This document shows, in pieces, positions 1,517-13,458 of a stretch of DNA of 64,000 nt. The DNA is from an uncultured Candidatus Saccharibacteria bacterium (GTDB lineage Bacteria; Patescibacteriota; Doudnabacteria; UBA920): assembly GCA_964600695.1 (NCBI GenBank), contig CAZRKK010000002.1, forward strand, positions 5,354-69,353, in the 5' to 3' direction. Positions within the stretch are counted from its first letter, which is position 1. Each line of letters begins with the position of its first letter. Below the pieces are notes generated by a model. That model ran no database searches, was not told the origin of the DNA, and worked only from the letters and a program-made list of their open reading frames with translations. Made by a program: the position numbers and the translations under genes.

Positions 1517-1966
1517 ATGACTCAACCACAATGGAAAAGCGTAGATTCTATTTCGCGCATGTTAAATTCGGCTTCCGTAGTCACTAATATAGTAAATCAT
1601 GTTGCAGAGGAGCTTGTTCAGATACCTCAAGAAAAACTGGTGGAATTATACAGGTTTAGATCTGCTACCATTCCAATTAAAAACCGTCATTTAGAAATTA
1701 ATTTTTCTCAACTGAGTGATAGGCAGAAAGAGGCTGTGATCGAAGGCGTTGGTGCGTTGGGAAGCGAACTAGGTTTTGAAATTGGTATCGAAGCCTGTGA
1801 ATTAGGCAATCCGAATGATTTGGAGTATTGTTTAATAATCTCAGAACCCATTGATGATGTTATTGATGGAGGTGGCGATGATGATAGTGATAGGCGAGTT
1901 GATCTGCCAATCACATCTTCGCAAGATGAAATCCATGCCCCAAAAGTAATGGCAGCTCATGGTTGA
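1517..1966 (+). CDS. hypothetical acidic protein
   Basis: 149-aa ORF with GGAGG upstream (atggaggttagataaaATG). C-terminus is D/G-rich. No family recognised. Confidence 0.5.
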   Translation: MTQPQWKSVDSISRMLNSASVVTNIVNHVAEELVQIPQEKLVELYRFRSATIPIKNRHLEINFSQLSDRQKEAVIEGVGALGSELGFEIGIEACELGNPNDLEYCLIISEPIDDVIDGGGDDDSDRRVDLPITSSQDEIHAPKVMAAHG

Positions 1967-1996
1967 CGCATAGTTCAATTCAAAAACTGTATATTA

Positions 1997-2027
1997 AAAG
2001 AAGCGTAATCTCGCTTCTTTTTATTTT
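1997..2027 (+). terminator. rho-independent terminator
   Basis: 9-bp stem aaagaagcg (1997-2005) / cgcttcttt (2012-2020) followed by a T-rich run. Confidence 0.8.
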
Positions 2028-2156
2028 TGTAAACAATAATGCGAATGATGCAATACAATTAATTAACTTATGAGAAATATATTAGTCTAGCATTATGGAA
2101 TATATTGGCTAATATGTCAACAATAGGGAAAAACCCAAAATTTCCTCAATAAAAAC

Positions 2157-2185
2157 TTGACACTAACCAGAATATGGGATAAAAT
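2157..2185 (+). promoter_or_regulatory. sigma70-type promoter of the S10 operon
   Basis: TTGACA (2157-2162), 17-nt spacer, TAAAAT (2180-2185), about 95 nt upstream of the rpsJ ATG. Confidence 0.55.
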
Positions 2186-2278
2186 TTTGATTAAGTTCTA
2201 CTAGCAATAAAGCTAGTGGTTTTAATTGCTGTAAAGTCCCTTAAATAAGACAAAAACAGCATATTGTCAATCTATTTT

Positions 2279-2602
2279 ATGGAAAAGGCCGAACACAAGC
2301 CAAAAATTCGCATCAAGATTCGCGCATACGATCACAAGTTAATTGATCAAAGTGCAAAGCAAATCGTTGATACTGCCAAGAGAACTGGTGCCAGCGTTTC
2401 TGGTCCAGTACCTTTGCCTACCGCAAAGCGAAAGTACACAGTGCTTCGTTCTACTTTTGTACATAAAGATAGCCGAGAACAGTTCGAAATGCGTACTCAT
2501 AAGCGTATGATCGATATCCTCGACCCAACCCCTAAAACCATCGATTCTCTCACTAACTTGGCTTTACCAGCTGGAGTAGATGTAGAGATCAAAATGAGTT
2601 AA
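2279..2602 (+). CDS. rpsJ: 30S ribosomal protein S10
   Basis: [22 protein letters not shown]...[24 protein letters not shown] is a canonical S10 sequence. I prefer the ATG at 2279 over the TTG at 2264 in the ORF track. Confidence 0.96.
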
Positions 2603-2806
2603 AGGCGTGCCGCAAAATATAGCGGCCGCTCGGTGTGAATCTGTTCTGAAATTTTAGAGTCCAAACAGCTCAAAACTTCAGATAACTATTCGCCAAATAC
2701 AAGCAAAGCATCCTAGATGATGAATTGTTTATATGTGGTGATTAGCCACATTTTTTTATTTAATAAGACGTGATGTCCACCACTTAAGTGGACCAATCAA
2801 AACCGT
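2603..2806 (+). promoter_or_regulatory. unusually long structured rpsJ-rplC spacer (candidate attenuator or r-protein leader)
   Basis: 204 nt of non-coding sequence inside an otherwise tightly packed operon. Hairpins at 2645-2682, 2733-2751 (followed by T7) and 2775-2793. Confidence 0.45.
2733..2757 (+). terminator. intrinsic terminator-like hairpin between rpsJ and rplC
   Basis: atgtgg (2733-2738) / ccacat (2746-2751), 7-nt loop, then ttttttt. Confidence 0.5.
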
Positions 2807-3478
2807 ATGAAATTTATTGTTGGAAAAAAGTTAAATATGACAACCTACTTCGCAGAAAATGGCGAAGTTATTCCTGCTACCGTAGTCAAAGCCCCAAACA
2901 TGGTGGTTACTCAGATTAAGACTGCAGACAGTAAAGATGGTTATAACGCTATTCAAGTTGGTATTAGCGCAGTTGTAGCTGGAAGTAAGAATTCAAACAA
3001 AGCAAAGACAGGTCACTCTAAAGATCTTGGTAAATTTGGAAAATTTGTTGAATTTCGTGTAGACAACCCTCAAGATTTTACTCTTGGTCAGAAGGTGGAA
3101 GTTTCTCAATTCGAAATTGGTGAAATGGTAGATGTAATTGGTGTGATGAAGGGACGCGGTTTCGCAGGTGCGATGAAGCGTCACGGTTTCCATGGATTCC
3201 CAATGAGTCACGGTCATAACCGTCCTCGTAGTGTAGGATCTATTGGTTCTCGTTACCCACAGCACGTTAACAAAGGCCGTCGTATGGCTGGTCATATGGG
3301 AACTCAACACGTTACTGTAAAAAATCTTCAAGTTGTTGATGTTGATGGTGGAAACGGTTTAATTTTAATCAAAGGTGCGGTTCCAGGAACTCGTAATGGC
3401 ATGGTTCGCATTTCTACAACTGGAGTAAAGAAGCCTTTGTTTGTAGCTGTTGTTGAAGATACTAAGAAAAAGAAATAG
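2807..3478 (+). CDS. rplC: 50S ribosomal protein L3
   Basis: L3-like sequence (GKKLNMT...GFAGAMKRHGFHG...) at the canonical position after S10. Confidence 0.95.
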   Translation: MKFIVGKKLNMTTYFAENGEVIPATVVKAPNMVVTQIKTADSKDGYNAIQVGISAVVAGSKNSNKAKTGHSKDLGKFGKFVEFRVDNPQDFTLGQKVEVSQFEIGEMVDVIGVMKGRGFAGAMKRHGFHGFPMSHGHNRPRSVGSIGSRYPQHVNKGRRMAGHMGTQHVTVKNLQVVDVDGGNGLILIKGAVPGTRNGMVRISTTGVKKPLFVAVVEDTKKKK

Positions 3479-3490
3479 TCTAATATCTAT

Positions 3491-4240
3491 ATGAAGATTC
3501 AAGTTTACAATCAGAACGCCGAAGCCGTAGGTGAAATGGAAGTTAGCGACAGCATCTTTGCTGTTAAGCCATCTTTGCATTTAATGGCCGAAAGTGTCCG
3601 TGCTCAAGCTAACAACGCTCGTAAAGGTTTAGCTAATACCAAAACTCGTGGTGAAGTTAGTGGTGGCGGTAAGAAGCCTTGGAAGCAAAAGGGAACTGGT
3701 CGCGCTCGCGCAGGTTCTACTCGTAGTCCAATTTGGCGTCATGGTGGAGTAACCTTTGGTCCAACTTCTGATCGTAACTGGAGTGTGAAGATCAACAAGA
3801 AAGCCAAGACTAAAGCTTTATTCATGTCTTTGTCCGACAAAGCTCGTGATGGCAAATTTATTATCATCGAAGGTATCAACCTAGAAACTCCAAAGACTAA
3901 AGAATTCATCAAGGTTATGGAAGCTTTCCATTCTAAGCTTACTGTTTTAGGCAACAAGCAGATGATGGTTCTACCAAAGAAAGATGATTCCTTAATCCGT
4001 GCTTCTCGTAACCTTCAAGAAATTAACACAGCTTTTGCAACTAGTTTAAATATCACAGATATCCTAAAAGCAGATTCCATGCTTGTCATGAAAGACAGCT
4101 TGAAAGTTATCGAACGAACTTATTTAAAAGAAGCAGGCAAAGCAGTTAAAGAAGAAAAGGCAGTCAAAGAAGTTAAAGCAGAAGATAAAGAAAAAGCTCC
4201 TGCAAAATCTGAAGCTAAGAAAGAAGTAACTAAAGAATAA
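3491..4240 (+). CDS. rplD: 50S ribosomal protein L4 with K/E/A-rich C-terminal extension
   Basis: SGGGKKPWKQKGTGRARAGSTRSPIWRHGGVTFGP motif. About 45 extra C-terminal residues (KEAGKAVKEEKAVKEVKAEDKEKAPAKSEAKKE). Confidence 0.95.
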   Translation: MKIQVYNQNAEAVGEMEVSDSIFAVKPSLHLMAESVRAQANNARKGLANTKTRGEVSGGGKKPWKQKGTGRARAGSTRSPIWRHGGVTFGPTSDRNWSVKINKKAKTKALFMSLSDKARDGKFIIIEGINLETPKTKEFIKVMEAFHSKLTVLGNKQMMVLPKKDDSLIRASRNLQEINTAFATSLNITDILKADSMLVMKDSLKVIERTYLKEAGKAVKEEKAVKEVKAEDKEKAPAKSEAKKEVTKE

Positions 4241-4263
4241 TTATTCCCCCTAACACTAATTAA

Positions 4264-4692
4264 ATGGCAATTTTTTCTAAAAAAGAGAATACTGACGAAG
4301 TTGTAGTTGATGCTCCTGTAGCAGATCAACCAACATCTTCTAAAGATACAGCTGTAACAGCTGACTCTGAATCCCCAAAAGCAATGGCGGATGTTGTTAA
4401 TAGTGGAATCGGCACTAAGGGTTTAATTGTTCCTCGAATTTCCGAAAAGGCTGGATTTGTAGCTCGCTTTAACCAATACATTTTTACCATTCACGGTAAG
4501 CTTAATAAAATTGAAGTTAAGAATGCTGTGCAAAAAATGTATGGAGTTAAAATCGCTAACATTAATATGATCCAAGTTGCTGGCAAGGGCCGTCGTTTTG
4601 GTACTAAAAAAGGAATGCGCAGCGGTTTTAAAAAGGCAGTAATTACCTTAACCCCAGATAGTAAGAAAATTGATATAGTAGAACCTAACTAA
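4264..4692 (+). CDS. rplW: 50S ribosomal protein L23 with N-terminal extension
   Basis: The L23 core (RISEKA...[26 protein letters not shown]) is preceded by about 45 aa of low-complexity sequence. Confidence 0.92.
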
Positions 4693-4696
4693 ATTT

Positions 4697-5542
4697 ATGG
4701 CAGTTAAAATTTACAAACCAACTACACCAGGCCGTCGTCAGACTAGCGTTATAGACTACGCTAAAGTCCTCAATAAAACCGAGAAAACTCCGAAGTTTTT
4801 GATTATGAGCAAGGCTAAGCAAGCTGGTCGTAATAATTCTGGAAAAATCACAGTTCGTCACCGTGGTGGTGGTGCACTTAAGAAAGTTCGTATCGTAGAT
4901 TTTATTCGTGCGGACCGAAAAGATATTCCTGGAACAGTTAAGACCATCGAATATGATCCAACTCGTACTTCATTTATTTCTCTAATCGATTACAATGATG
5001 GAGTAAAGCGTTTAATCATCACTCCGATTGGTTTAAAAGTTGGCGATAAAGTCATTTACAGCGAAACAGCAGAAATTCATCCTGGTAACCGATTGTCTAT
5101 TTCTAATATCCCAGTTGGTAGCTTAATCCACGATGTAGAATTAGTTCCTGGTCGCGGTGGTAAGCTTGCTCGAAGTGCTGGAAATAGCGTATTGTTACAG
5201 AACATCGAAGCTGGTTATGCCTTTCTAAAATTACCATCAGGTGAAATTCGTAAGGTTCGCGAAACATGTACCGCTAGCATTGGCCAAGTTTCTAATAATG
5301 ATTGGATGAATGTCCGAATCGGTAAAGCTGGTCGTAAGCGTCACATGGGTTGGAGACCTCAAGTCCGTGGTAAAGTTATGAACCCGGTAGATCACCCTCA
5401 TGGTGGTGGAGAAGGTAGTAACTCGATCGGTATGAAATATCCTAAGACTCCTTGGGGTAAGCATGCTCTCGGTGTAAAGACTCGTGATAAGAAAAAAGGC
5501 TCTTCCAAGTTTATTGTGAAGCGTCGAACTAAGAAGCGTTAA
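4697..5542 (+). CDS. rplB: 50S ribosomal protein L2
   Basis: Canonical L2 motifs ([29 protein letters not shown]). Confidence 0.97.
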
Positions 5543-5554
5543 TTAATATAATTT

Positions 5555-5842
5555 ATGTCTAGAAGTTTAAAAAAAGGTCCATTTATAGATCCTCGAGTGA
5601 TGAAGAAAGTTATCGCTGGTAAGCCTGGTGATAAAATCAAGACTTGGGCTCGCGATTGTGCTATCTCTCCAGAGATGGTTGGTTATACTTTTATGGTACA
5701 CAATGGCAAAACTCATCTCGAAGTATTCGTTACAGAGAACATGGTTGGACACAAACTTGGTGAATTTTCACCAACACGTAAATTTATTGGTCACGGTGGT
5801 AAACTTGCTAAAGAGCAAAAAGCCGAAGCTTCATCTAAATAA
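5555..5842 (+). CDS. rpsS: 30S ribosomal protein S19
   Basis: [12 protein letters not shown]...[24 protein letters not shown]. Confidence 0.97.
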
Positions 5843-5870
5843 TAATTTCCCGATATTTTAATCCCATTAT

Positions 5871-6524
5871 ATGGCAGAAAAAACTGTACAAAAGAATAAG
5901 AAGACCCCAGCGGCTAAGCCGTCTGTTAAGGCTGGATCTAAAACAGCAACTGCTGTTGTAGAAGCACCTAAGCAATTGGTACGTGCTCATGCTCGTAATC
6001 TTCGAATTTCCCCACGTAAATTACGCTTAGTTACAAACATGGTTAAGAACATGCGTGTTGGTGATGCTTTGGTACAGTTGCAATTTACCAATAAAAAAGG
6101 TGCACCGATGATCGCGAAGTTATTACAATCTGCTGTTGCTAACGCTGAACATAATTTTTCTTTAAATCGTGATGGGTTAATAATTAAGAGCATTACCTGC
6201 GACATGGGGCCAGTTCTCCAACGTGCCTTTCCGCGTGCCCGTGGTAGTGCTTTTGTAATCCGCCGTAAGATGAGCCATGTCAACGTCATCTTAGAAGAAA
6301 AGGCGATTAAGAAAACTGCTGGCGGCAAAAAGAAGCCAGCGGCAGCAAAAGTACCAAAGACTACTAAAGCAGATAAACCAGTACAAACAGTAGAAGGTTC
6401 AGCTGGCTTACCGGTCGAAAAAGTAACCAAGTTACCTAAAGAACAGAAAGTCAAAGAAGTTCATCACGAGAACGAAGGCAATCTAGTTGACCAAAAGACA
6501 GAACCAGAAAACTTAATAAAATAA
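5871..6524 (+). CDS. rplV: 50S ribosomal protein L22 with long N- and C-terminal extensions
   Basis: The L22 core (RISPRKLRLVTNMVKNMRVGDALVQLQF...) lies inside a 217-aa ORF, roughly twice the usual L22 length. Confidence 0.93.
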   Translation: MAEKTVQKNKKTPAAKPSVKAGSKTATAVVEAPKQLVRAHARNLRISPRKLRLVTNMVKNMRVGDALVQLQFTNKKGAPMIAKLLQSAVANAEHNFSLNRDGLIIKSITCDMGPVLQRAFPRARGSAFVIRRKMSHVNVILEEKAIKKTAGGKKKPAAAKVPKTTKADKPVQTVEGSAGLPVEKVTKLPKEQKVKEVHHENEGNLVDQKTEPENLIK

Positions 6525-6525
6525 T

Positions 6526-7182
6526 ATGGGAAATAAGATCAATCCAACTTCATTTAGACTTAAGATTACCGATACTTGGAAGTCCAAGTGGTACTCTAAA
6601 GGCAATTACGTAGAACAGCTTAAAGAAGATGTTGCTATTCGTGAATATCTCGAAAAGCATTTACGTAAGGCCGGTCTTGCTCGAATCGATATCGAACGTC
6701 TTAACGACGGTACTATCACTATCGTAATTCGTACTACTAAACCAGGTTTAATTATTGGTAAAGGTGGTGCGGGGATCGAAGAACTTAAGAAGCGCGTTAA
6801 GAAGCAACTTAAGATCAAGAGCGAACTCAAAGTTAACATCGAAGAAATTCGTGACGTTAACATGCATGCTCAAGTGATCGCTAACGGCATCGCCGAACAG
6901 ATCGAACGCCGTGTTGCATTCCGTCGTCTAATGAAGCAATCTCTAGAACAAATTATGCAGGCTGGTGCTAAGGGTGTAAAAGTAGCAATTGGTGGCCGTT
7001 TGAATGGAGCAGAAATTGCTCGTTCCGAACATTTGTCTAGTGGTAAGATTCCTCTTCATACACTTCGCGCAGATATTGATTACGCTAAAGCTACTGCTCA
7101 CACTACATATGGAACAATTGGTATTAAAGTGTGGATCTATCGAGGCGATGTGTTCTCCGAGAAAGCTAAAGAGATTAAGTAG
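6526..7182 (+). CDS. rpsC: 30S ribosomal protein S3
   Basis: MGNKINPTSFRL...KH-domain...GRLNGAEIARSE motifs. Confidence 0.97.
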   Translation: MGNKINPTSFRLKITDTWKSKWYSKGNYVEQLKEDVAIREYLEKHLRKAGLARIDIERLNDGTITIVIRTTKPGLIIGKGGAGIEELKKRVKKQLKIKSELKVNIEEIRDVNMHAQVIANGIAEQIERRVAFRRLMKQSLEQIMQAGAKGVKVAIGGRLNGAEIARSEHLSSGKIPLHTLRADIDYAKATAHTTYGTIGIKVWIYRGDVFSEKAKEIK

Positions 7183-7221
7183 TTAAATAAATTAAGTAAC
7201 GTTTAGTTTTATACAAAGATT

Positions 7222-7629
7222 ATGTTAATTCCAAAAAAGGTCAAACACCGCAAACACCATCGCGGTCATAACAAAGGTAAAGCAACTTCTGGTAATTTTA
7301 TTGCTTTTGGAAGCTTCGCTCTTAAGGCTATGGAAGGCAGTTTCGTAACTGCTCGCCAAATCGAAGCCGCTCGTCGAGCTATGACTCGTAGTGTTCAACG
7401 TGGTGGTAAAATCTGGATTCGTATTTTCCCAGACAAGCCAATGACTGATCACGGTAACGAATCTGTAATGGGTAGCGGTAAAGGTGCCGTATCTCACTTC
7501 GTAGCTGTAGTCAAATCTGGTCGCATCCTATTCGAAATGGATGGTGTCCCAGAAGTTGCTGCTCGCGAAGCGATGAGACTCGCTGCACACAAACTGCCTG
7601 TGAAGACTAAATTCCTAATCAAGCAATAA
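7222..7629 (+). CDS. rplP: 50S ribosomal protein L16
   Basis: [15 protein letters not shown]...[12 protein letters not shown]...[11 protein letters not shown]. Confidence 0.97.
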
Positions 7630-7630
7630 G

Positions 7631-7825
7631 ATGAAATATACAGAAATCACCTCACAATCTATAGAGGCGTTACGCAAAGAGCTAACGACTTTACAAGAAA
7701 AACGCGAGAACCTCAAGATGAAAACTAAGCTTGGTCAGGTTAAGAACACCAACCAATTGTCTATGGTTAAAAAAGACATTGCTCGCATTATGACCTTTCT
7801 AAGATCTAGCCAAGGGGCTAAATAG
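7631..7825 (+). CDS. rpmC: 50S ribosomal protein L29
   Basis: 64-aa helical protein ([18 protein letters not shown]) at the L29 position between L16 and S17. Confidence 0.9.
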
Positions 7826-7845
7826 AGCTAACTAATTATATTTAT

Positions 7846-8088
7846 ATGGAAAAGCAAGTTACAAAACAACAAATGTCCGGCACTGTAGTGTCAAATAAGA
7901 TGGATAAAACCGTTGTGGTTAAGGTTGATATTTTAAAACGTCACCCTAAGTATCACAAGAGTTACACAAAATCTTATCGCTACAAAGCACATGACGAAGA
8001 CAACAGTTGCCAGATTGGCGATAAGGTTGTAATCGAAGCTATTCGTCCTATGAGCCGCGACAAGAAGTTTACAGTTTTAAAGAGCTAA
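7846..8088 (+). CDS. rpsQ: 30S ribosomal protein S17
   Basis: [16 protein letters not shown]....HPKY.K...YKAHDE...GD.V.I...RP.S motifs. Confidence 0.95.
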
Positions 8089-8139
8089 GTCGCGGACAGC
8101 TAGTCGCAAATTACTCGTTACTAAATACTTAATAAATTT

Positions 8140-8511
8140 ATGTTACAAATAAGATCTTACATTAAAATCGCAGATAACACTGGCGCTAAAGTCGTCAACT
8201 TGTTCGCAGTGAACGGAAAAAACAAACGTCGCTTTGCACGAGTTGGGGATATTGTCGCTGGTTCAGTTCGCCAAGCTGCTCCTAATGGGCAGGTTAAGAA
8301 AGGTGATAAGATCTATGCAGTTATCGTTCGTACTAAAAAGGAAATTCGTCGTAAAGACGGTTCATACATCCGATTTGATGAGAACGCTGGCGTATTGGTA
8401 GATAAAGAAAAAGGTGAACCACGTGGTACTCGTATCTTTGGTCCAATCCCAAGAGAAGTCCGTGATGCTGGTTTTTCTAAAATCGCTTCATTGGCTCCAG
8501 AGGTTATCTAA
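8140..8511 (+). CDS. rplN: 50S ribosomal protein L14
   Basis: [17 protein letters not shown]...[11 protein letters not shown]; canonical L14. Confidence 0.97.
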
Positions 8512-8534
8512 CGCGACAAGTAATTTATTTATAT

Positions 8535-8858
8535 ATGACACAGATCAAGTTAAAAATTAAGAAAGGCGATACCGTTAAAGTATTGTCCGGTAAAGACAAG
8601 GGTAAGACTGGTAAAGTATTACGTGTTCTTCCAACTATCCAAAAAGTAGTTGTAGAAAACGTTAATATGCACACTAAGTTCGAGCGTAGCCGCCGAGCTG
8701 GTCAGCCAGGTCAGAAGATTGTATTTGCTGGAGTAATGGCTTCCTCTAAGGTTCAATTAATTGACCCTCATTCTGGTAAACCAACTCGGGTTAGCTTCCA
8801 GACCTTAGAAAATGGCACTAAGCAACGAATAGCTAAGCAGAGCGGAAAGGCCATCTAA
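8535..8858 (+). CDS. rplX: 50S ribosomal protein L24
   Basis: KIKKGDTVKVLSGKDKGKTGKVLRV KOW motif at the L24 position. Confidence 0.95.
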   Translation: MTQIKLKIKKGDTVKVLSGKDKGKTGKVLRVLPTIQKVVVENVNMHTKFERSRRAGQPGQKIVFAGVMASSKVQLIDPHSGKPTRVSFQTLENGTKQRIAKQSGKAI

Positions 8859-8862
8859 TTAT

Positions 8863-9402
8863 ATGAACAGATTACAAACACAATATAATAAAGAGATTGT
8901 CCCTGCGCTTAAAGAAAAGTTTGGTTACACAAATGTAATGGCAGTACCAAAGATTAAGCAAGTTAACCTCAACATTGGTGTCGGACGTTTCCTTAAAGAC
9001 AACAAGTTTATGGAATCAATTAAAAAAGATTTCACAAAGTTGGCTGGTCAAGCTCCGGTAGAAACCATGGCTCGTAAGTCTGTCGCTGGATTCAAAGTTC
9101 GTGAAGGCCAACAAGTCGGTCTAACAGTAACTATCCGCGGTAACCGCATGTACGAATTTCTAGATAAGTTGATCAGTGTGGCTATGCCTCGTGTCAAAGA
9201 TTTCCGTGGTGTGTCTCGTAAAGGTTTCGACGGACGTGGTAACTATAACCTTGGACTTAAAGAACATCTCGTATTCCCAGAAATTTCCCAAGAAGCTCTC
9301 GAACACATCTTCGGTCTTCAAGTAACGATAGTAACAAGCGCAGGTAAAGATGAACCTGCATATGAATTATTAAAGCAGATGAAGTTTCCCTTCAAAGATT
9401 AA
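8863..9402 (+). CDS. rplE: 50S ribosomal protein L5
   Basis: L5-like sequence (RLQTQYNKEIVPALKEKFGYTNVMAVPKI...GRGNYNLGLKE). Confidence 0.96.
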   Translation: MNRLQTQYNKEIVPALKEKFGYTNVMAVPKIKQVNLNIGVGRFLKDNKFMESIKKDFTKLAGQAPVETMARKSVAGFKVREGQQVGLTVTIRGNRMYEFLDKLISVAMPRVKDFRGVSRKGFDGRGNYNLGLKEHLVFPEISQEALEHIFGLQVTIVTSAGKDEPAYELLKQMKFPFKD

Positions 9403-9411
9403 TTAATAACA

Positions 9412-9606
9412 ATGGCTAAAAAATCTCTAATCGCAAAAGCTAATAGAAGTTTGATCAAACCGAAGTTTTCTACTCGGGTGATTCGTCGTTGTTTTAAGTG
9501 TGGTCGAAAAGCTGCTTTTATGAGAGATTTCTCTCTATGCCGTATTTGTTTCCGAGAACTAGCCAGCCGTGGAGAAATCCCTGGTGTATCTAAAGCCTCC
9601 TGGTAA
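9412..9606 (+). CDS. rpsN: 30S ribosomal protein S14, short zinc-ribbon (type Z) form
   Basis: 64 aa with CFKC...12 aa...CRIC and C-terminal [11 protein letters not shown]. Confidence 0.95.
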
Positions 9607-9623
9607 GAACTAATTAAACTACT

Positions 9624-10016
9624 ATGTACACAGATCCAATTTCAGACATGTTAACAAGAATCCGAAACGCGCTTGGGGCTTCCAAGCAGGATTTAGTTAT
9701 GCCTTACTCTAAGTTTAAACACAGCTTGGCTCAGGTTCTTTTAGAAGAAGGCTTTATTGCTGGCGTTAATGAACTTCCAGGTCGCATCAAGATGCTTCAA
9801 ATTAATTTAAAATATGATCAAACCGGTAATCCAGTAATCTCAGGTGTTAAGCGTGTTAGCACCCCAGGTCAAAGAATTTATATGCCTGTGACTAAAATTC
9901 CTCGTACTAATGGTGGATTTGGAATCACAATCGTATCAACTTCTAAAGGCTTAGTTACAGATAAGCGCGCACGTAAGGATCGTATTGGTGGAGAAGTAAT
10001 TTGCCAAGTCTGGTAA
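9624..10016 (+). CDS. rpsH: 30S ribosomal protein S8
   Basis: DPISDMLTRIRNA...GGEVICQVW. Confidence 0.97.
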   Translation: MYTDPISDMLTRIRNALGASKQDLVMPYSKFKHSLAQVLLEEGFIAGVNELPGRIKMLQINLKYDQTGNPVISGVKRVSTPGQRIYMPVTKIPRTNGGFGITIVSTSKGLVTDKRARKDRIGGEVICQVW

Positions 10017-10034
10017 TTTTTAAAGAATAAATAT

Positions 10035-10616
10035 ATGAGCAGAATAGGAAAAAAACCAGTAATCTTAACTCAAGGCATCACCGCTGAGCTTAAGGATAAG
10101 CACCTCACTATCAAAGGTAGTAAAGGTACTTTAGAGTTGGATATTCACCCAAAAGTTTTAGTTGAAGTAAAAGATGGGGAAATCACTGTTGATGTTGCCA
10201 AGAAGGAAGACAAGCGCGAAAAAGCTCTTTGGGGCCTGTCTCGAGCTTTGGTACAGAATATGGTAGATGGATTAACAACTGGTTTTTCTAAGCAGTTAGA
10301 TATTGTTGGAGTTGGTTTTAAAGCAGAAATGCGTGGTCAAACTTTAGTTCTGAACTTAGGTTTTTCTCATGCTATTGATTTTGAAATTCCTGCCGGAATC
10401 GAAGTTAAAGTAGAAAAAGATCCTTCTAAAGTAACTATTGCTCAGTATCAAACAACTGTATCTCTTTCTGGAATCGATAAGCATTTAGTTGGTCAAGTTG
10501 CTGCTAATATCCGTGAGCTTAAAAAGCCAGAACCTTACAAAGGTAAAGGGATTCGTTATAGCGATGAAAATATCTTGCGTAAGGCAGGTAAGGTTGTTAA
10601 AGCAGTAGGAAAGTAA
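10035..10616 (+). CDS. rplF: 50S ribosomal protein L6
   Basis: MSRIGKKPV...two-domain L6 pattern...PEPYKGKGIRY. Confidence 0.96.
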   Translation: MSRIGKKPVILTQGITAELKDKHLTIKGSKGTLELDIHPKVLVEVKDGEITVDVAKKEDKREKALWGLSRALVQNMVDGLTTGFSKQLDIVGVGFKAEMRGQTLVLNLGFSHAIDFEIPAGIEVKVEKDPSKVTIAQYQTTVSLSGIDKHLVGQVAANIRELKKPEPYKGKGIRYSDENILRKAGKVVKAVGK

Positions 10617-10638
10617 CCTCTAATAGAGAAATAATTAT

Positions 10639-10992
10639 ATGAACAAACAAGAGCATAAAATTTTAAAGCACAAATTACGTAAGGGTCGTGTTCGAAGCCG
10701 CGTCAGCGGTACCGAAGCGAGACCTCGTTTAAGCGTGTTTCGTTCTAATTCTCAAATCTACGCTCAAGTAATAGATGATATTTCTGGTAAGACTGTAGCT
10801 GCTACTTCTAGCATCAATATCAAATCAGCAGGTAAGAAAGTTGATCAAGCCACAGCTGTTGGTAAAGAAATTGCTGCTAAGGCAATCGCCAAAGGTGTTA
10901 AAGCAGTAGTGTTCGATAGAGGCGGTTATAAGTATCATGGTCGTGTAAAAGCATTAGCAGAAAGCGCTCGTGAAGCTGGGTTACAATTCTAA
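10639..10992 (+). CDS. rplR: 50S ribosomal protein L18
   Basis: [20 protein letters not shown]...[26 protein letters not shown]. Confidence 0.96.
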
Positions 10993-11005
10993 CTAATTTA
11001 AATAT

Positions 11006-11509
11006 ATGGAAAAAAGAACTCGTAGAAACAATTCAAGAGACGGCGGAGAAGCCCGTGAATTCGACCAAAAAGTGGTTGAGATTAAGCGTGTAACCCGTGT
11101 AGTTGCTGGTGGAAAACGTATGCGTTTTCGTGCACTTGTTGTAATTGGTGACCACAAAGGTAAAATCGGTATCGGTTTAAAGAAGGGGATGGATGTAACC
11201 GAAGCTGTAAACAAAGCTGTTAATGCTGCAAAGAAAAGCATGATCGTAGTACCAATTGTTAACGATACAGTTCCTCATCAAGTTAACATTAAGTATAAGT
11301 CTAGTAAGTTGTTAATGATGCCTGCTCGTCCTGGTACTGGTGTAATTGCTGGTGGTGCAGTTCGTAGCGTACTCGACCTTGCTGGTGTTAAGAATGTAAT
11401 CAGTAAAATGATTGGTTCTAACAACAAAACTAATAATGTCCGAGCCGCTTTCGAAGCTTTTAAAATGATGCGTAGTAAAGAAGAAATTTTAAAGAGCCGC
11501 GCAAAATAG
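11006..11509 (+). CDS. rpsE: 30S ribosomal protein S5
   Basis: VVEIKRVTRVVAGGKRMRFRALVVIGD.KG.IG.G.GK...V..A..KA motifs. Confidence 0.96.
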   Translation: MEKRTRRNNSRDGGEAREFDQKVVEIKRVTRVVAGGKRMRFRALVVIGDHKGKIGIGLKKGMDVTEAVNKAVNAAKKSMIVVPIVNDTVPHQVNIKYKSSKLLMMPARPGTGVIAGGAVRSVLDLAGVKNVISKMIGSNNKTNNVRAAFEAFKMMRSKEEILKSRAK

Positions 11510-11536
11510 TTCTCAGTTAAATTTAATTTCAATTAT

Positions 11537-11971
11537 ATGATCAAACTTCATCAATTAAAACGTCATCCAAAAGCTACAAAGCGCCGCAAAGTTGTCGGTC
11601 GTGGTATTGGTAGTGGTCACGGTACTTACTCTACTCGTGGTGCTAAGGGACAAAAGTCTCGTACAGGTCACTCTAAGTCTCCGGCACGTTTTGAAGGTGG
11701 TCGCCAACCATTGATTCGTCAAATTGGTAAACTTCGTGGATTCAAGAGCTTAGCTCCGAATGCATTTGCAGTTAAGTTGGATTTGTTAAACTCATTACCT
11801 GATGGTACAGAGGTTACATTAAATAGCTTAAAGGCACACGGCATCATTGATACTGGTGTTAAGAAGGTAAAGATTCTAAAAGGCGAACTTAAGCGAAAGC
11901 TAGTGGTTGCTGTTCCTGTTTCTGCTACTGCTAAGGCTTCTATTGAAGCTGCAGGCGGTAGTATCAAATAA
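11537..11971 (+). CDS. rplO: 50S ribosomal protein L15
   Basis: LKRHPKATKRRKVVGRGIGSGHGTYSTRGAKGQKSR. It starts 27 nt after rpsE, with no rpmD between them. Confidence 0.96.
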   Translation: MIKLHQLKRHPKATKRRKVVGRGIGSGHGTYSTRGAKGQKSRTGHSKSPARFEGGRQPLIRQIGKLRGFKSLAPNAFAVKLDLLNSLPDGTEVTLNSLKAHGIIDTGVKKVKILKGELKRKLVVAVPVSATAKASIEAAGGSIK

Positions 11972-11981
11972 ACTTATTAAG

Positions 11982-12095
11982 AGCCTATGGCAATTATTAA
12001 TTCCTGTCGCTAAACTGCTACGTCTGCTAAAAATTTCTTCGAAACTTTTGCATACTGGGCAGTGATGCTCCTTGAATCAACAATTGCCATAGGCT
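11982..12095 (+). other. 114-nt element closed by a perfect 14-bp long-range inverted repeat (candidate structured RNA)
   Basis: agcctatggcaatt (11982-11995) is the exact reverse complement of aattgccataggct (12082-12095). An internal hairpin lies within gcatactgggcagtgatgc. Confidence 0.5.
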
Positions 12096-12106
12096 TTAAA
12101 GTTTAA

Positions 12107-12136
12107 TTAGACCTGATTTGAGGATTAAAGTATAAT
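12107..12136 (+). promoter_or_regulatory. possible secY promoter
   Basis: TTAGAC (12107-12112), 18-nt spacer, TATAAT (12131-12136), 6 nt before the secY ATG region. Weak -35. Confidence 0.3.
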
Positions 12137-12142
12137 ACAAAT

Positions 12143-13420
12143 ATGAATAAATTAAGCTTAATTTGGAAAACTAAAGATTTGCGTTGGAAGATCTTCATGG
12201 TCATGATGTTGCTTTTAGTGACTCGTGTTTTGGCTCATGTCCCAATTCCTGGGATTAGCGTCACTGGCTTGAAGGCTTTCTTCGAAAGCAATCAATTTTT
12301 AAACTTATTGAACGTTTTTTCTGGTGGTGGACTAAGTAACTTTTCTATCGCTATGCTTGGTGTTGGACCATACATCACAGCATCTATTATTATGCAGTTG
12401 TTGGTCATGATTGTTCCTTCACTTACAGAACTACAGAAAGAAAGTGGAGAAGCTGGTCGAGTTAAAATCAACCAGTACACTCGTTTTTTGACTTTGCCAT
12501 TAGCAGTTTTGTCTGGTTTCGGAACTATTCGATTATTACAAAGCCAAGGTGGGGCAGAGTTACTTGGAACTTTCTCTCCTTTCCAGTGGTTCCTAACTTT
12601 GTTAACAGTTACCGCTGGTACAATGTTGGTTATGTGGATCGGTGAAATCATTTCCGAATACGGAATTGGTAATGGTGTATCTTTAGTAATTTTCGCCGGT
12701 ATCGTTTCTCAGTTACCTAAGAGCGTTGGTTCGTTGGTTCAGTTATATGATCCAAGCCAATTACCAACCATTATTGGATTTGCTATTGTCGCTTTGATCG
12801 TTATCGCCAGTGTAGTATTTGTGACTGAAGCTCAGCGCAATGTCCCGGTTACGTATGCAAAGCGGGTGAGTGGAGATAAACAAGTTGGTGGAGTTAACTC
12901 ATTCTTACCGTTACGTCTTAACCAAGCAGGTGTTATTCCAATCATCTTCGCAATTTCATTATTGTTGTTCCCAGCGATTATTGCTCAGTTCTTCTTAAAT
13001 GCCAAGACTCCTTTGATTGCTGAATATGCCCAAAAAGCTATTGATTTTACAAATAATCAAGGCGTTTGGTATGGCGTATCTTACTTCCTATTAGTTGTTA
13101 TATTCACTTATTTCTACACTAATATTGTTGTAAATCCAGATGAAGTTTCCGAAAACATGCAACGCAGTGGTGGCTTTGTTCCTGGTATTCGCCCCGGGAA
13201 GCAGACTGCTGATTACTTATACAAAGTTTTGAACCGCATCACTTTGCCTGGATCCTTATTCCTTGGTTTAATCGCTATCCTGCCTTTCATCTTACAAACA
13301 TGGACAGGAACCCGAGCATTAACATTTGGTGGTACTGGATTGCTGATTGTAGTAGCGGTAGTAATTGAAAGTATCAAGCAAGTCGAGGCTCAGCTAACTA
13401 TGCACGACTATCAAAAATAA
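12143..13420 (+). CDS. secY: preprotein translocase subunit SecY
   Basis: 425-aa 10-TM protein with SecY motifs (GISVTGLKAFF, GVGPYITASIIMQLL, NGVSLVIFAGI), after rplO. Confidence 0.96.
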   Translation: MNKLSLIWKTKDLRWKIFMVMMLLLVTRVLAHVPIPGISVTGLKAFFESNQFLNLLNVFSGGGLSNFSIAMLGVGPYITASIIMQLLVMIVPSLTELQKESGEAGRVKINQYTRFLTLPLAVLSGFGTIRLLQSQGGAELLGTFSPFQWFLTLLTVTAGTMLVMWIGEIISEYGIGNGVSLVIFAGIVSQLPKSVGSLVQLYDPSQLPTIIGFAIVALIVIASVVFVTEAQRNVPVTYAKRVSGDKQVGGVNSFLPLRLNQAGVIPIIFAISLLLFPAIIAQFFLNAKTPLIAEYAQKAIDFTNNQGVWYGVSYFLLVVIFTYFYTNIVVNPDEVSENMQRSGGFVPGIRPGKQTADYLYKVLNRITLPGSLFLGLIAILPFILQTWTGTRALTFGGTGLLIVVAVVIESIKQVEAQLTMHDYQK

Positions 13421-13426
13421 ATTATT

Positions 13427-13458
13427 AACTCCCTCTAGTAATTAGGGGGAGTTTTTTT
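13427..13458 (+). terminator. rho-independent terminator after secY
   Basis: aactccctc (13427-13435) pairs with gggggagtt (13445-13453), one G-U pair, followed by a T7 run. Confidence 0.75.

What the first reader, a model, noticed from the sequence alone, without database searches (positions are those of the whole stretch)
2603..2806. 204-nt structured spacer with an intrinsic-terminator-like hairpin between rpsJ and rplC
Seen:
- All other junctions in the S10-spc cluster are 1-51 nt, but S10 and L3 are separated by 204 nt.
- The spacer contains an imperfect hairpin at 2645-2682 (tctgaa...ttcaga), a textbook terminator shape atgtgg-N7-ccacat followed by T7 (2733-2757), and a further hairpin gtccac-N7-gtggac (2775-2793) just before the rplC ATG.

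Established: the E. coli S10 operon is autoregulated by L4 through transcription attenuation and translational control, but there the element lies in the leader upstream of rpsJ.

Inference: this may be a relocated or independently evolved r-protein-responsive attenuator that lets rpsJ be expressed separately from rplC onwards. It could also be a decayed insertion remnant.
Basis: partly seen in the sequence, partly recalled or inferred. Interest (0 to 1): 0.5.

Follow-up and report, generated by a model that had tools for sequence, protein, structure and literature searches.

The report
Conserved attenuator RNA before rplC
The long gap between the S10 and L3 ribosomal-protein genes of this candidate-phyla-radiation bacterium holds a conserved RNA switch, missing from Rfam 15, that can fold either into a transcription terminator or into a shape that blocks it, so it probably throttles the ribosomal-protein genes downstream.

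Summary

Comparison with 160 related loci shows a conserved cis-regulatory RNA rather than decay. A covariance model of its 5' part finds 30 members. Every hit lies on the + strand in the rpsJ-rplC spacer of Doudnabacteria-like Patescibacteria, and nowhere else.

All 29 complete members have four segments that form three mutually exclusive structures:
- **P0+P1**, a bulged hairpin (anti-antiterminator).
- **P2**, a long hairpin (antiterminator).
- **T**, an intrinsic terminator with a U-run.

P0+P1 covaries strongly: 89.7% of cells pair against 34-43% in slid controls, and 16 of 19 pairs change on both sides. For P0, P2 and T, each strand pairs better with its own partner than with partners from other members (0/5000 permutations each). 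The read-through and terminated folds are nearly equal in energy.

In nine members the terminator ends 5-25 nt before the rplC ATG. That leaves no room for a promoter, so termination must be conditional.

The most likely mechanism is that a ribosomal protein from the operon (L4 by precedent, or L3) locks P0+P1 and so triggers termination. This is inferred, not shown. Rfam 15 has no match. I rate it a new member of a known kind.

The parts
2279..2602 (+). rpsJ (S10/NusE) coding sequence, the gene upstream of the element
   Evidence: ORF and translation. 81-93% identical to S10 of loci L001-L011. Start taken at ATG 2279, from the alignment with relatives.
2604..2630 (+). G+C-rich hairpin just after the rpsJ stop. 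It is specific to this window and is not part of the conserved element.
   Evidence: Present in the MFE fold of the spacer. Absent from relatives, where the stop-to-P0 distance is 0-120 nt with unrelated sequence.
2635..2641 (+). Segment 1: 5' strand of helix P0 (GUGAAUC)
   Evidence: Pairs in a fixed register with 2687-2693. In all 30 members 5-7 of 7 positions pair. All 7 P0 pairs show changes on both sides.
2643..2686 (+). P1 bulged hairpin. Pairs: invariant G2643-C2686 and U2644-A2685; 2-nt bulge 2683-2684; basal stem 2645-2650 / 2677-2682; middle stem 2652-2655 / 2672-2675; apical stem 2657-2660 / 2668-2671; 7-nt loop 2661-2667. P0 plus P1 forms the proposed anti-antiterminator and ligand site.
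Evidence: Folds. Models R1 and R2 hit only this site in the window. Covariation table.
2686..2699 (+). Segment 2: 2687-2693 is the 3' strand of P0, and 2686-2699 is the 5' strand of P2. It is the shared strand that makes P0 and P2 mutually exclusive.
2686..2745 (+). P2, the long antiterminator hairpin (-19.8 kcal/mol here). Its 3' strand (about 2731-2745) covers the 5' arm and the loop of the terminator.
   Evidence: P2 forms in the MFE fold of all 29 complete members. 6-10 nt of each terminator 5' arm are paired within it. Cognate versus non-cognate duplex energy is -12.16 versus -7.88 kcal/mol, 0/5000 permutations.
2733..2757 (+). Intrinsic terminator T: stem AUGUGGU / GCCACAU (2733-2739 / 2745-2751), loop 2740-2744, U-run 2751-2757
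   Evidence: A hairpin followed by a U-rich tail is present in all 29 complete members; the tail is weak in L010 and L098. Cognate versus non-cognate arm energy is -11.34 versus -6.15 kcal/mol, 0/5000 permutations.
2772..2798 (+). P4 hairpin (GAUGUCCAC...GUGGACCAAUC), 8 nt before the rplC ATG. A sub-clade add-on of unknown role.
   Evidence: Shared only with L001, L002 and L081, with compensatory changes in the stem. Absent from the other members. No other copy in the window.
2807..3478 (+). rplC (L3), the first gene downstream of the element. It is followed by rplD, rplW, rplB and so on to rplO, with 1-51 nt junctions.
2157..2219 (+). Context: the rpsJ promoter-like site TTGACA-17-TAAAAT (2157-2185) and a leader hairpin (2198-2219). 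This is the likely start of the transcript that carries the element.
   Evidence: Best promoter match in 14 kb, 11 of 12 positions. The promoter and a covarying hairpin are conserved upstream of rpsJ in relatives.

Best explanation
The rpsJ-rplC spacer encodes a cis-acting transcription attenuator in the rpsJ-rplC mRNA. It belongs to a family of at least 30 such leaders in Doudnabacteria-like Patescibacteria.

Anatomy (shown). Four segments can pair as 1:2, 2:3 or 3:4.
- Segment 1 (2635-2641) pairs with segment 2 (2687-2693) to form P0. P0 closes the bulged hairpin P1 (2643-2686).
- Segment 2 can instead pair with segment 3 (about 2731-2745) to form the long hairpin P2.
- Segment 3 can instead pair with segment 4 (2745-2751) to form the terminator T, which is followed by U7.

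Mechanism (inferred). P0+P1 is transcribed first. Unless something holds it, the longer and more stable P2 displaces P0, the terminator cannot form, and RNA polymerase reads on into rplC, rplD and the rest of the S10-spc cluster. When a trans-acting factor binds the invariant bulged junction of P0/P1 (A-GU...NA-AC), P0+P1 is locked, segment 3 is left free, T forms, and transcription stops at about 2757.

Ligand (inferred). The factor is most likely a ribosomal protein of the operon that is in excess over rRNA. L4 is favoured by precedent and L3 by proximity. This would be negative feedback on the genes from rplC onwards. It leaves rpsJ (S10, which is also NusE) outside the loop.

In members where T abuts the start codon, the same hairpin could also hinder translation initiation.

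The ligand, the direction of the switch and actual termination are not shown here. The confidence given is for the whole statement. I put about 0.9 on the narrower claim that this is a conserved cis-regulatory attenuator.
For: Position and specificity
- Models R1 and R2 of the 5' module hit only the + strand of the rpsJ-rplC spacer. The hits are the 12 seeds (44-61 bits) and 18 metagenome contigs (17.6-53 bits; the weakest, L090, has E = 0.67 and was kept for its architecture). There is nothing else in the 64-kb window or in the other 130 loci.

P0+P1 is real
- On a MAFFT alignment of 30 distinct sequences, 89.7% of cells pair, against 34-43% when partners are slid. 16 of 19 pairs change on both sides. 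0 of 500 shuffles reach any of the five measures.
- Many G-U pairs fit the + strand, although both strands fold about equally well by energy.

P2 and T
- All 29 complete members have a terminator hairpin followed by a U-rich tail, which is weak in L010 and L098.
- P2 forms in every member's own MFE fold and uses 6-10 nt of the terminator 5' arm.
- P2 is more stable than T in all 29: -12.6 to -28.4 kcal/mol against -7 to -18.

Co-evolution of the strands
- Cognate versus non-cognate duplex energies: P0 -4.86 versus -3.37, P2 -12.16 versus -7.88, T -11.34 versus -6.15 kcal/mol. Each gives 0/5000 permutations.

Bistability
- The best fold with the terminator 3' arm unpaired and the best fold with the terminator enforced differ by only a few kcal/mol (window -28.7 versus -29.8).
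- When the terminator is enforced, P0+P1 appears on its own in the three structures printed: window, L005 and L110.

Termination must be conditional
- The distance from T to the rplC ATG is 5-25 nt in nine members, so rplC can only be transcribed by read-through.
- No + strand promoter-like site lies in the spacer.

Precedent
- B. subtilis rplJL uses an anti-antiterminator that L10(L12)4 stabilises (PMC4538822).
- L20 attenuates the B. subtilis infC operon (PMC1865079).
- L4 attenuates the E. coli S10 operon (PMC3616713).
- Candidate leaders upstream of rplC are reported in Archaeoglobi (PMC7247131) and cyanobacteria (PMC12873609).
Against: - No ligand is identified.
- Model R2 finds nothing in E. 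coli 16S or 23S rRNA, even with filters off. Word and fold inspection of the L4 and L3 regions of E. coli 23S shows no mimic. The organism's own rRNA was not available.
- The four invariant junction nucleotides (G, U, A, C) cannot covary, so their pairing is assumed.
- Equilibrium energies slightly favour the terminated state in most members. The direction of the switch, whether the factor promotes termination or read-through, therefore rests on co-transcriptional folding logic and on precedent.
- The terminator stem in the window is weak (-8.5 kcal/mol, 3 G-C pairs).
- The alignments used for P2 and T were fitted per sequence, not aligned independently.
- The sequences are related, so the shuffle counts are not probabilities.
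- There are no expression data.
Confidence: 0.6

Rival explanations
1. Nus-factor element. The invariant GUUC...GA(N)AAC would be a boxA-like site bound by NusB together with S10 (NusE, the product of the gene just upstream). Binding would modify RNA polymerase or remodel the leader and so set read-through at the terminator. That would tie rplC-operon transcription to the level of free S10.
For: The two conserved halves resemble GUUCUUUGAAAAC, the conserved rRNA-spacer box of Firmicutes and Mollicutes (my recollection; the string turns up in papers on mycoplasma detection). BoxA elements do regulate genes other than rRNA, including rpsJ in some gamma-proteobacteria (PMC5725501). BoxA consensus varies between phyla (PMC7665894). 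rpsJ lies immediately upstream.
Against: A boxA is a contiguous, single-stranded 11-12-mer. Here the halves are 30-50 nt apart. The fifth base of GUUCU covaries with its partner as an ordinary helix pair (UA 21, CG 6, UG 2). The next pair inward also covaries. The boxA of this lineage's rRNA operons is unknown. No rRNA is present in the window.
Confidence: 0.1
2. Riboswitch-like sensor of something other than a ribosomal protein, such as a small molecule, an alarmone or an RNA. P0+P1 would be an aptamer whose occupancy decides between P2 and T.
For: The switch architecture would serve any ligand. Conserved unpaired bases sit in the junction, the internal loop (CCAAA / UCAA) and the 7-nt apical loop.
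Against: The conserved part is one irregular hairpin with no multi-helix junction or pseudoknot, and few invariant unpaired bases. It occurs only ahead of rplC. No Rfam riboswitch matches, even at E up to 10.
Confidence: 0.1
3. Translation-coupled attenuation. The ribosome finishing rpsJ covers segment 1, prevents P0, favours P2 and allows read-through. When rpsJ translation lags, P0+P1 and T form. No protein ligand would be needed.
For: The rpsJ stop codon is only 0-14 nt from P0 in 10 of 30 members. The 1:2 / 2:3 / 3:4 layout is that of leader-peptide attenuators (general knowledge of the trp leader).
Against: The stop-to-P0 distance ranges up to 120 nt. It is 32 nt in the window, with a hairpin in between. 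This is too far for a terminating ribosome to mask segment 1 in most members. The model does not explain the invariant junction bases or the conserved P1.
Confidence: 0.1
4. Plain operon boundary. T would be a constitutive terminator ending a monocistronic rpsJ transcript, and rplC would have its own promoter.
For: rpsJ has its own strong promoter-like site. The window has 53 nt between T and the ATG.
Against: No + strand promoter-like site lies in the spacer. In nine members only 5-25 nt separate T from the ATG. A conserved antiterminator that overlaps the terminator in all 29 members has no purpose at a constitutive terminator.
Confidence: 0.05
5. Decayed insertion or mobile-element remnant with chance hairpins.
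For: Several relatives do carry unrelated insertions in the same spacer, such as a palindromic GTCATTCTGAGCGAAGCGAAGAATC element in L001 and L081.
Against: The element sits at the orthologous position, on one strand only, with compensatory changes in 30 loci. There are no other copies in the window.
Confidence: 0.02

Closest known systems
Bacillus subtilis rplJL leader (L10(L12)4-dependent attenuator; PMC4538822)
   Same: Three mutually exclusive RNA structures: anti-antiterminator, antiterminator and intrinsic terminator. In B. subtilis the ribosomal-protein complex stabilises the 5' anti-antiterminator and so promotes termination. This is the mechanism proposed here.
   Different: Different operon, different RNA sequence and fold, and different phylum. 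The Rfam scans, whose library should include an L10 leader family, gave no match. Ligand binding is shown there and only inferred here.
E. coli S10 operon leader (L4-interacting RNA; PMC3616713, PMC10931766)
   Same: It controls the same block of genes (rplC, rplD, rplW, rplB and so on) by premature intrinsic termination. It may also act on translation.
   Different: The E. coli element lies upstream of rpsJ, has five hairpins (HA-HE), and works by L4 with NusA stabilising a paused complex at the terminator, not by an alternative-pairing switch. It is largely confined to Gammaproteobacteria. Here the element lies after rpsJ, so S10 itself is outside the control.
Candidate leaders upstream of rplC: L4 r-leader of Archaeoglobi (PMC7247131) and the conserved structure upstream of rplC in cyanobacteria (PMC12873609)
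   Same: Conserved RNA structure immediately upstream of rplC, assumed to sense a protein of the operon.
   Different: Other lineages. No sequence or structure match in the Rfam scans. Whether those motifs contain terminators was not examined here.
B. subtilis infC-rpmI-rplT leader (L20-dependent attenuation; PMC1865079)
   Same: Ribosomal-protein feedback through alternative leader structures and a terminator.
   Different: Different operon and RNA. There the L20 site mimics 23S rRNA, and no mimicry could be shown here.
rRNA-operon boxA / NusB-NusE site (PMC5725501, PMC3177189)
   Same: Short words GUUC and GA(N)AAC, and proximity to the NusE gene.
   Different: BoxA is contiguous and single-stranded. 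Here the words are separated by a hairpin and are part of, or adjoin, covarying helices.

Membership tests
Protein-dependent transcription attenuator with anti-antiterminator, antiterminator and terminator (class typified by the B. subtilis rplJL and pyr leaders) | Three mutually exclusive structures that share strands (1:2, 2:3, 3:4) | tested here: met
   P0 and P2 share 2687-2693. P2 and T share 2733-2745. The same layout is seen in all 29 complete members.
Protein-dependent transcription attenuator with anti-antiterminator, antiterminator and terminator (class typified by the B. subtilis rplJL and pyr leaders) | Intrinsic terminator (G+C-containing hairpin followed by a U-run) upstream of the regulated gene | tested here: met
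   2733-2751 plus U7. A hairpin followed by a U-rich tail is present in 29 of 29 complete members; the tail is weak in L010 and L098. Actual termination was not measured.
Protein-dependent transcription attenuator with anti-antiterminator, antiterminator and terminator (class typified by the B. subtilis rplJL and pyr leaders) | The structures are maintained by selection (covariation) | tested here: met
   for P0+P1. for P0, P2 and T (cognate versus non-cognate, 0/5000 each).
Protein-dependent transcription attenuator with anti-antiterminator, antiterminator and terminator (class typified by the B. subtilis rplJL and pyr leaders) | A protein binds the anti-antiterminator and raises termination | not testable with these tools
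   Needs binding and in vitro transcription assays.
Autogenous ribosomal-protein leader (r-leader) | Conserved structured RNA in the untranslated region directly upstream of ribosomal-protein genes, found only there | tested here: met
   All 30 hits lie in the rpsJ-rplC spacer on the + strand. There are none elsewhere in about 0.84 Mb searched.
Autogenous ribosomal-protein leader (r-leader) | Resemblance to the rRNA site of the regulating protein (common but not universal) | tested here: inconclusive
   No hit of R2 on E. coli rrsH/rrlH, with filters on or off. Words such as GAUAAC occur at chance frequency in the rRNA. The lineage's own rRNA was not available.
E. coli-type S10 leader (L4-interacting RNA) | Located in the 5' leader upstream of rpsJ, with hairpins HA-HE, HE being the terminator | tested here: not met
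   The element lies downstream of rpsJ. Its architecture is P0/P1/P2/T, not five successive hairpins. The rpsJ leader of the window has one hairpin only.
Any Rfam 15 family (including the ribosomal-leader families it contains) | Score at or above the family's gathering threshold | tested here: not met
   0 hits in the window. 0 hits in 20 related loci. At E up to 10 on 1900-3000 there were only unrelated low scores of 19 bits or less.
boxA (NusB-NusE binding site) | Contiguous single-stranded 11-12-nt box (GYUCUUUAANA in gamma-proteobacteria) | tested here: not met
   GUUC and GA(N)AAC are separated by 30-50 nt and are part of, or adjoin, covarying helices.

The most novel reading that the evidence does not exclude
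The element may be one branch of a Patescibacteria-wide system. In that system the feedback point of the S10-spc ribosomal-protein cluster sits between rpsJ and rplC, not ahead of rpsJ. It would be built on a shared bulged-helix sensor of the form P0 - A(1-3) - G N - hairpin - N A - A C - P0'.

Two results point this way:
- A second variant of this sensor occurs in six more distant Patescibacteria loci, against 5 of 3100 shuffles.
- 38 of 57 other Patescibacteria spacers carry a terminator-like hairpin, against 1 of 35 non-CPR spacers.

If true, a whole superphylum would uncouple S10/NusE from ribosomal-protein feedback. It would do so with an RNA-protein recognition motif not yet described. 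The sensed protein could even be S10 itself.
Probability: 0.3. Interest if true: 0.65.

Novelty: new member of a known kind. Interest (0 to 1): 0.5.

Why it matters
No ribosomal-protein leader turned up for the candidate phyla radiation in Rfam 15 or in one full-text search of the held papers.

This element gives a well-defined RNA of about 125 nt, with 30 natural variants and a clear three-state design. It can be tested in vitro without culturing the organisms.

Its position after rpsJ implies that these bacteria regulate L3, L4 and the following proteins separately from S10, which also serves as transcription factor NusE. It also suggests where to look for the equivalent control in other Patescibacteria.

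It adds a case to the picture that ribosomal-protein feedback RNAs arise independently in different lineages.

Tried and rejected
- **Rfam.** Gathering thresholds on the window and on 20 related loci, and E up to 10 on 1900-3000, gave nothing relevant.
- **RNAalifold on the raw MAFFT alignment.** On the full-length elements it found only 4 pairs, because the variable P2 tip misaligned the 3' half. I replaced it with an alignment of the 5' module alone and with alignment-free tests for P2 and T.
- **rRNA mimicry.** Model R2 against E. coli rrsH-rrlH with filters on and off, word searches, and folds of the 23S regions 270-370, 2390-2460 and 2775-2904 gave no convincing match. The Stelzl 2003 paper on L4 mimicry is not held.
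- **Extending the family with R2.** Against more distant Patescibacteria spacers, only L093 gave a weak hit (16.5 bits, E 0.49). L091, L092, L095 and L097 look related by eye but were not evaluated.
- **Promoter inside the spacer.** No + strand site was found.
- **Repeated-element idea for the third hairpin.** There is no other copy in the window.
- **Leader-peptide or small-ORF idea.** No ORF of 40 aa or more lies wholly inside the spacer on either strand, and spacer lengths vary widely between members. Shorter ORFs were not searched.
- **boxA reading.** Considered and kept only as a low-probability rival.
- **Not attempted.** A third covariance model for the full-length element or for the second motif variant, and any protein search.

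Full report
**Observation**

rpsJ ends with TAA at 2600-2602. rplC starts at ATG 2807, and its N-terminus MKFIVGKKLNMT is the canonical L3 start. The spacer is therefore 2603-2806, 204 nt.

The middle one, followed by a T run, is also picked up by the terminator scan.

The junctions from rplC to rplO are 1-51 nt. The rplO-secY junction is 171 nt.

One terminator-like site is not remarkable in itself: 17 were found against 10.5 +/- 3.0 expected in 14 kb. The spacer does fold far better than shuffles, with z = -6.25. The core 2632-2759 gives z = -3.9.

**Organism and context**

The closest L3 sequences, at 59-78% identity, come from metagenome-assembled genomes labelled Candidatus Doudnabacteria, Saccharibacteria or Patescibacteria.

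The cluster has candidate-phyla-radiation traits (that the missing L30 is such a hallmark is my own knowledge):
- There is no L30 gene between rpsE and rplO.
- L4, L23 and L22 carry long basic tails.
- No Shine-Dalgarno sequence precedes any of the 21 genes.

rpsJ has its own promoter-like site, TTGACA-17-TAAAAT at 2157-2185. This is the best match in 14 kb, and it is conserved in relatives.

**The spacer is conserved**

I fetched 80 genome loci with L3 as query and 80 metagenome loci with S10 as query.

The spacers of the 11 closest genomes are 107-290 nt long. They share a core: AGUUCU, a hairpin, AGAnAACnAUUUACCC, a variable hairpin, GGGUAAAU..CCC, then a U-run.

A covariance model of the 5' half (R1) found the 12 seeds at 44-61 bits and 18 metagenome contigs at 17.6-53 bits. 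The weakest, L090 (E = 0.67), was kept because it shows the full architecture. Every hit is on the + strand just downstream of the S10 stop codon. There is nothing else in the 64-kb window or in the other 130 loci. A second model (R2) gave the same picture.

Rfam 15 has no match in the window or in 20 related loci.

**Anatomy**

Every member has the following parts.

- **P0.** Seven nucleotides upstream (window 2635-2641) pair with the seven nucleotides that follow an invariant AAC (2687-2693).
- **P1.** A bulged hairpin (2643-2686). Its base is the invariant pairs G-C and U-A. A 2-nt bulge separates these from a covarying stem. There is an internal loop, and an apical AGC-N7-GCU stem-loop.
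- **P2.** A long hairpin (2686-2745). Its 5' strand is the same nAUUUACCC stretch that forms P0.
- **T.** A terminator (2733-2751 plus U7). Its 5' arm and loop form the 3' strand of P2.

P0 and P2 therefore exclude each other, and so do P2 and T.

**Statistical support**

*P0+P1.* On a MAFFT alignment of the 5' module (30 distinct sequences, 71 columns), 89.7% of cells pair, against 34-43% when partners are slid by 1-3 columns. 16 of 19 pairs show changes on both sides. None of 500 column shuffles reaches the observed value on any of the five measures. The three remaining pairs are invariant and carry no information. Frequent G-U pairs fit the + strand, although the two strands fold about equally well by energy.

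*P2 and T.* Their variable spacing defeated MAFFT and RNAalifold. I therefore compared each strand with its own partner and with the partners from the other 28 members.

| Helix | Cognate mean (kcal/mol) | Non-cognate mean (kcal/mol) | Permutations reaching observed |
|---|---|---|---|
| P0 | -4.86 | -3.37 | 0/5000 |
| P2 | -12.16 | -7.88 | 0/5000 |
| T | -11.34 | -6.15 | 0/5000 |

P2 appears in the unconstrained MFE fold of all 29 complete members and engages 6-10 nt of the terminator 5' arm.

Because the sequences are related, these counts show co-variation but are not exact probabilities.

**A switch**

P2 is more stable than T in all 29 members: -12.6 to -28.4 kcal/mol against -7 to -18.

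I compared two folds of each whole element:
- the best fold with the terminator 3' arm kept unpaired (read-through), and
- the best fold with the terminator enforced.

They differ by only a few kcal/mol in most members (window -28.7 against -29.8). In the three enforced-terminator folds that were printed (window, L005, L110), P0+P1 forms on its own.

In nine members the terminator ends 5-25 nt before the rplC ATG. No + strand promoter-like site lies in the window's spacer. rplC and the cluster behind it must therefore be transcribed through the terminator, which means termination is conditional.

**Mechanism (inferred)**

P0+P1 is made first. P2 is longer and should displace P0 unless P0+P1 is held. 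If it is held, segment 3 stays free and T forms.

The invariant bases cluster at the P0/P1 junction (A-GU on one strand, NA-AC on the other). A small irregular helix of this kind is typical of a protein site.

The element occurs only ahead of rplC. The simplest reading is autogenous control by a ribosomal protein of the operon. L4 is the candidate by precedent (PMC3616713, PMC7247131) and L3 by proximity. The logic is the same as that shown for L10(L12)4 on the B. subtilis rplJL leader (PMC4538822).

I put about 0.9 on 'conserved cis-regulatory attenuator' and about 0.55-0.6 on 'a ribosomal protein stabilises P0+P1 and causes termination'.

**Ligand tests that failed**

- R2 finds nothing in E. 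coli 16S or 23S rRNA, with or without filters.
- Words such as GAUAAC occur there at chance frequency.
- Folds of the L4 and L3 regions of 23S rRNA show no look-alike.

**Rivals**

- **boxA / Nus factors.** The halves GUUC and GA(N)AAC recall the Firmicute boxA GUUCUUUGAAAAC, and rpsJ encodes NusE. But the halves are 30-50 nt apart and are part of, or adjoin, covarying helices.
- **Ribosome masking.** A ribosome finishing rpsJ could mask segment 1 in the 10 members where the stop codon is 0-14 nt from P0. It could not do so in the others, where the distance is up to 120 nt and is 32 nt in the window.
- **Metabolite sensor.** It cannot be excluded, but it does not fit a single irregular hairpin found only ahead of rplC.
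- **Constitutive terminator with a downstream promoter, or a decayed insertion.** Both are contradicted by the data above.

**Beyond the family**

- Of 57 other Patescibacteria loci, 38 carry a terminator-like hairpin with a U-run in the rpsJ-rplC spacer (median spacer 227 nt). Only 1 of 35 non-CPR loci does.
- Six more distant loci (L019, L101, L103, L108, L111, L127) carry a variant sensor: P0 - AAA - GN - hairpin - NA - AC - P0'. Shuffled spacers gave 5 matches in 3100.
- L091, L092, L095 and L097 look related by eye, and L093 gives a weak model hit.
- Together these hint at a superphylum-wide arrangement, but I did not establish it.

**The other two hairpins**

The G+C-rich hairpin at 2604-2630 is specific to this window. 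The hairpin before the ATG (2772-2798) is shared, with compensatory changes, only with L001, L002 and L081, and has no other copy in the window. Neither is part of the conserved switch.

**Verdict**

The element is a new RNA family of a known mechanistic kind. It sits in an unusual place, inside the operon after rpsJ, in a poorly studied superphylum. Interest is moderate.

Noticed in passing
window 2157-2278: The rpsJ leader has a near-consensus promoter, TTGACA-17-TAAAAT (2157-2185). A hairpin follows at 2198-2219, then UUUUAAUUGCUGU. Both the promoter and a hairpin with compensatory changes recur upstream of rpsJ in L001, L081, L002, L003, L004 and others. This may be a second leader element or a 5' stabiliser. 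In L098, L109 and L110, rpsJ instead follows tuf directly.
   Followed up: partly
window 2604-2630: A G+C-rich hairpin (GGCG.GCCGC...GCGGCCGCU, containing GCGGCCGC) lies immediately after the rpsJ stop codon. It is absent from all relatives.
   Followed up: partly
window 2772-2798: The hairpin GAUGUCCAC...GUGGACCAAUC lies 8 nt before the rplC ATG. It is preceded by GUGAUGU and followed by CCAAUCAAAAC. It is conserved with compensatory changes only in L001, L002 and L081, where the stem encloses a large insertion. Its role is unknown.
   Followed up: partly
window 2279-13420: None of the 21 genes from rpsJ to secY has a Shine-Dalgarno sequence. Their upstream regions are A/U-rich (often UAAUUA or AUAU). 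There is no L30 gene between rpsE and rplO. L4 (249 aa), L23 (142 aa) and L22 (217 aa) carry long Lys/Ala-rich extensions.
   Followed up: no
window 11972-12142 and 13427-13453: The rplO-secY gap is 171 nt and holds a promoter-like site, TAGACC-17-TATAAT (12108-12136). A strong terminator-like hairpin follows secY at 13427-13453.
   Followed up: no
L001 about 2325-2400; L081 about 2965-3040; also L108, L123, L158 spacers: A palindromic element, GTCATTCTGAGCGAAGCGAAGAATC...GGATGAC, is inserted between the terminator and rplC in L001 and L081. Similar sequences occur in the rpsJ-rplC spacers of L108, L123 and L158. It looks like a small mobile or repeated element.
   Followed up: no
spacers of L010, L089, L096, L099, L104, L107: Short direct repeats of the TACGAAA / ATACGAAA type flank the conserved element, either upstream of P0 or between T and rplC, in several relatives.
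   Followed up: no
L019, L101, L103, L108, L111, L127 (rpsJ-rplC spacers): A second sensor variant has the form P0 - AAA - GN - hairpin - NA - AC - P0', for example UAUAGAG aaa GC UCCGGAU..AUCCGGA ua AC CUCUAUA. It is found in 6 of 62 other Patescibacteria spacers, against 5 of 3100 shuffles. L103, L111 and L127 also share a downstream UUAAGG(G)AGAUUAA box.
   Followed up: partly
L012-L160, rpsJ-rplC spacers: Long rpsJ-rplC spacers (median 227 nt) with a terminator-like hairpin and U-run occur in 38 of 57 Patescibacteria loci outside the family. Only 1 of 35 non-CPR loci has one (median spacer 83 nt).
   Followed up: partly
window 1-64000: No tRNA gene and no Rfam family at gathering threshold were found anywhere in the 64 kb.
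   Followed up: no
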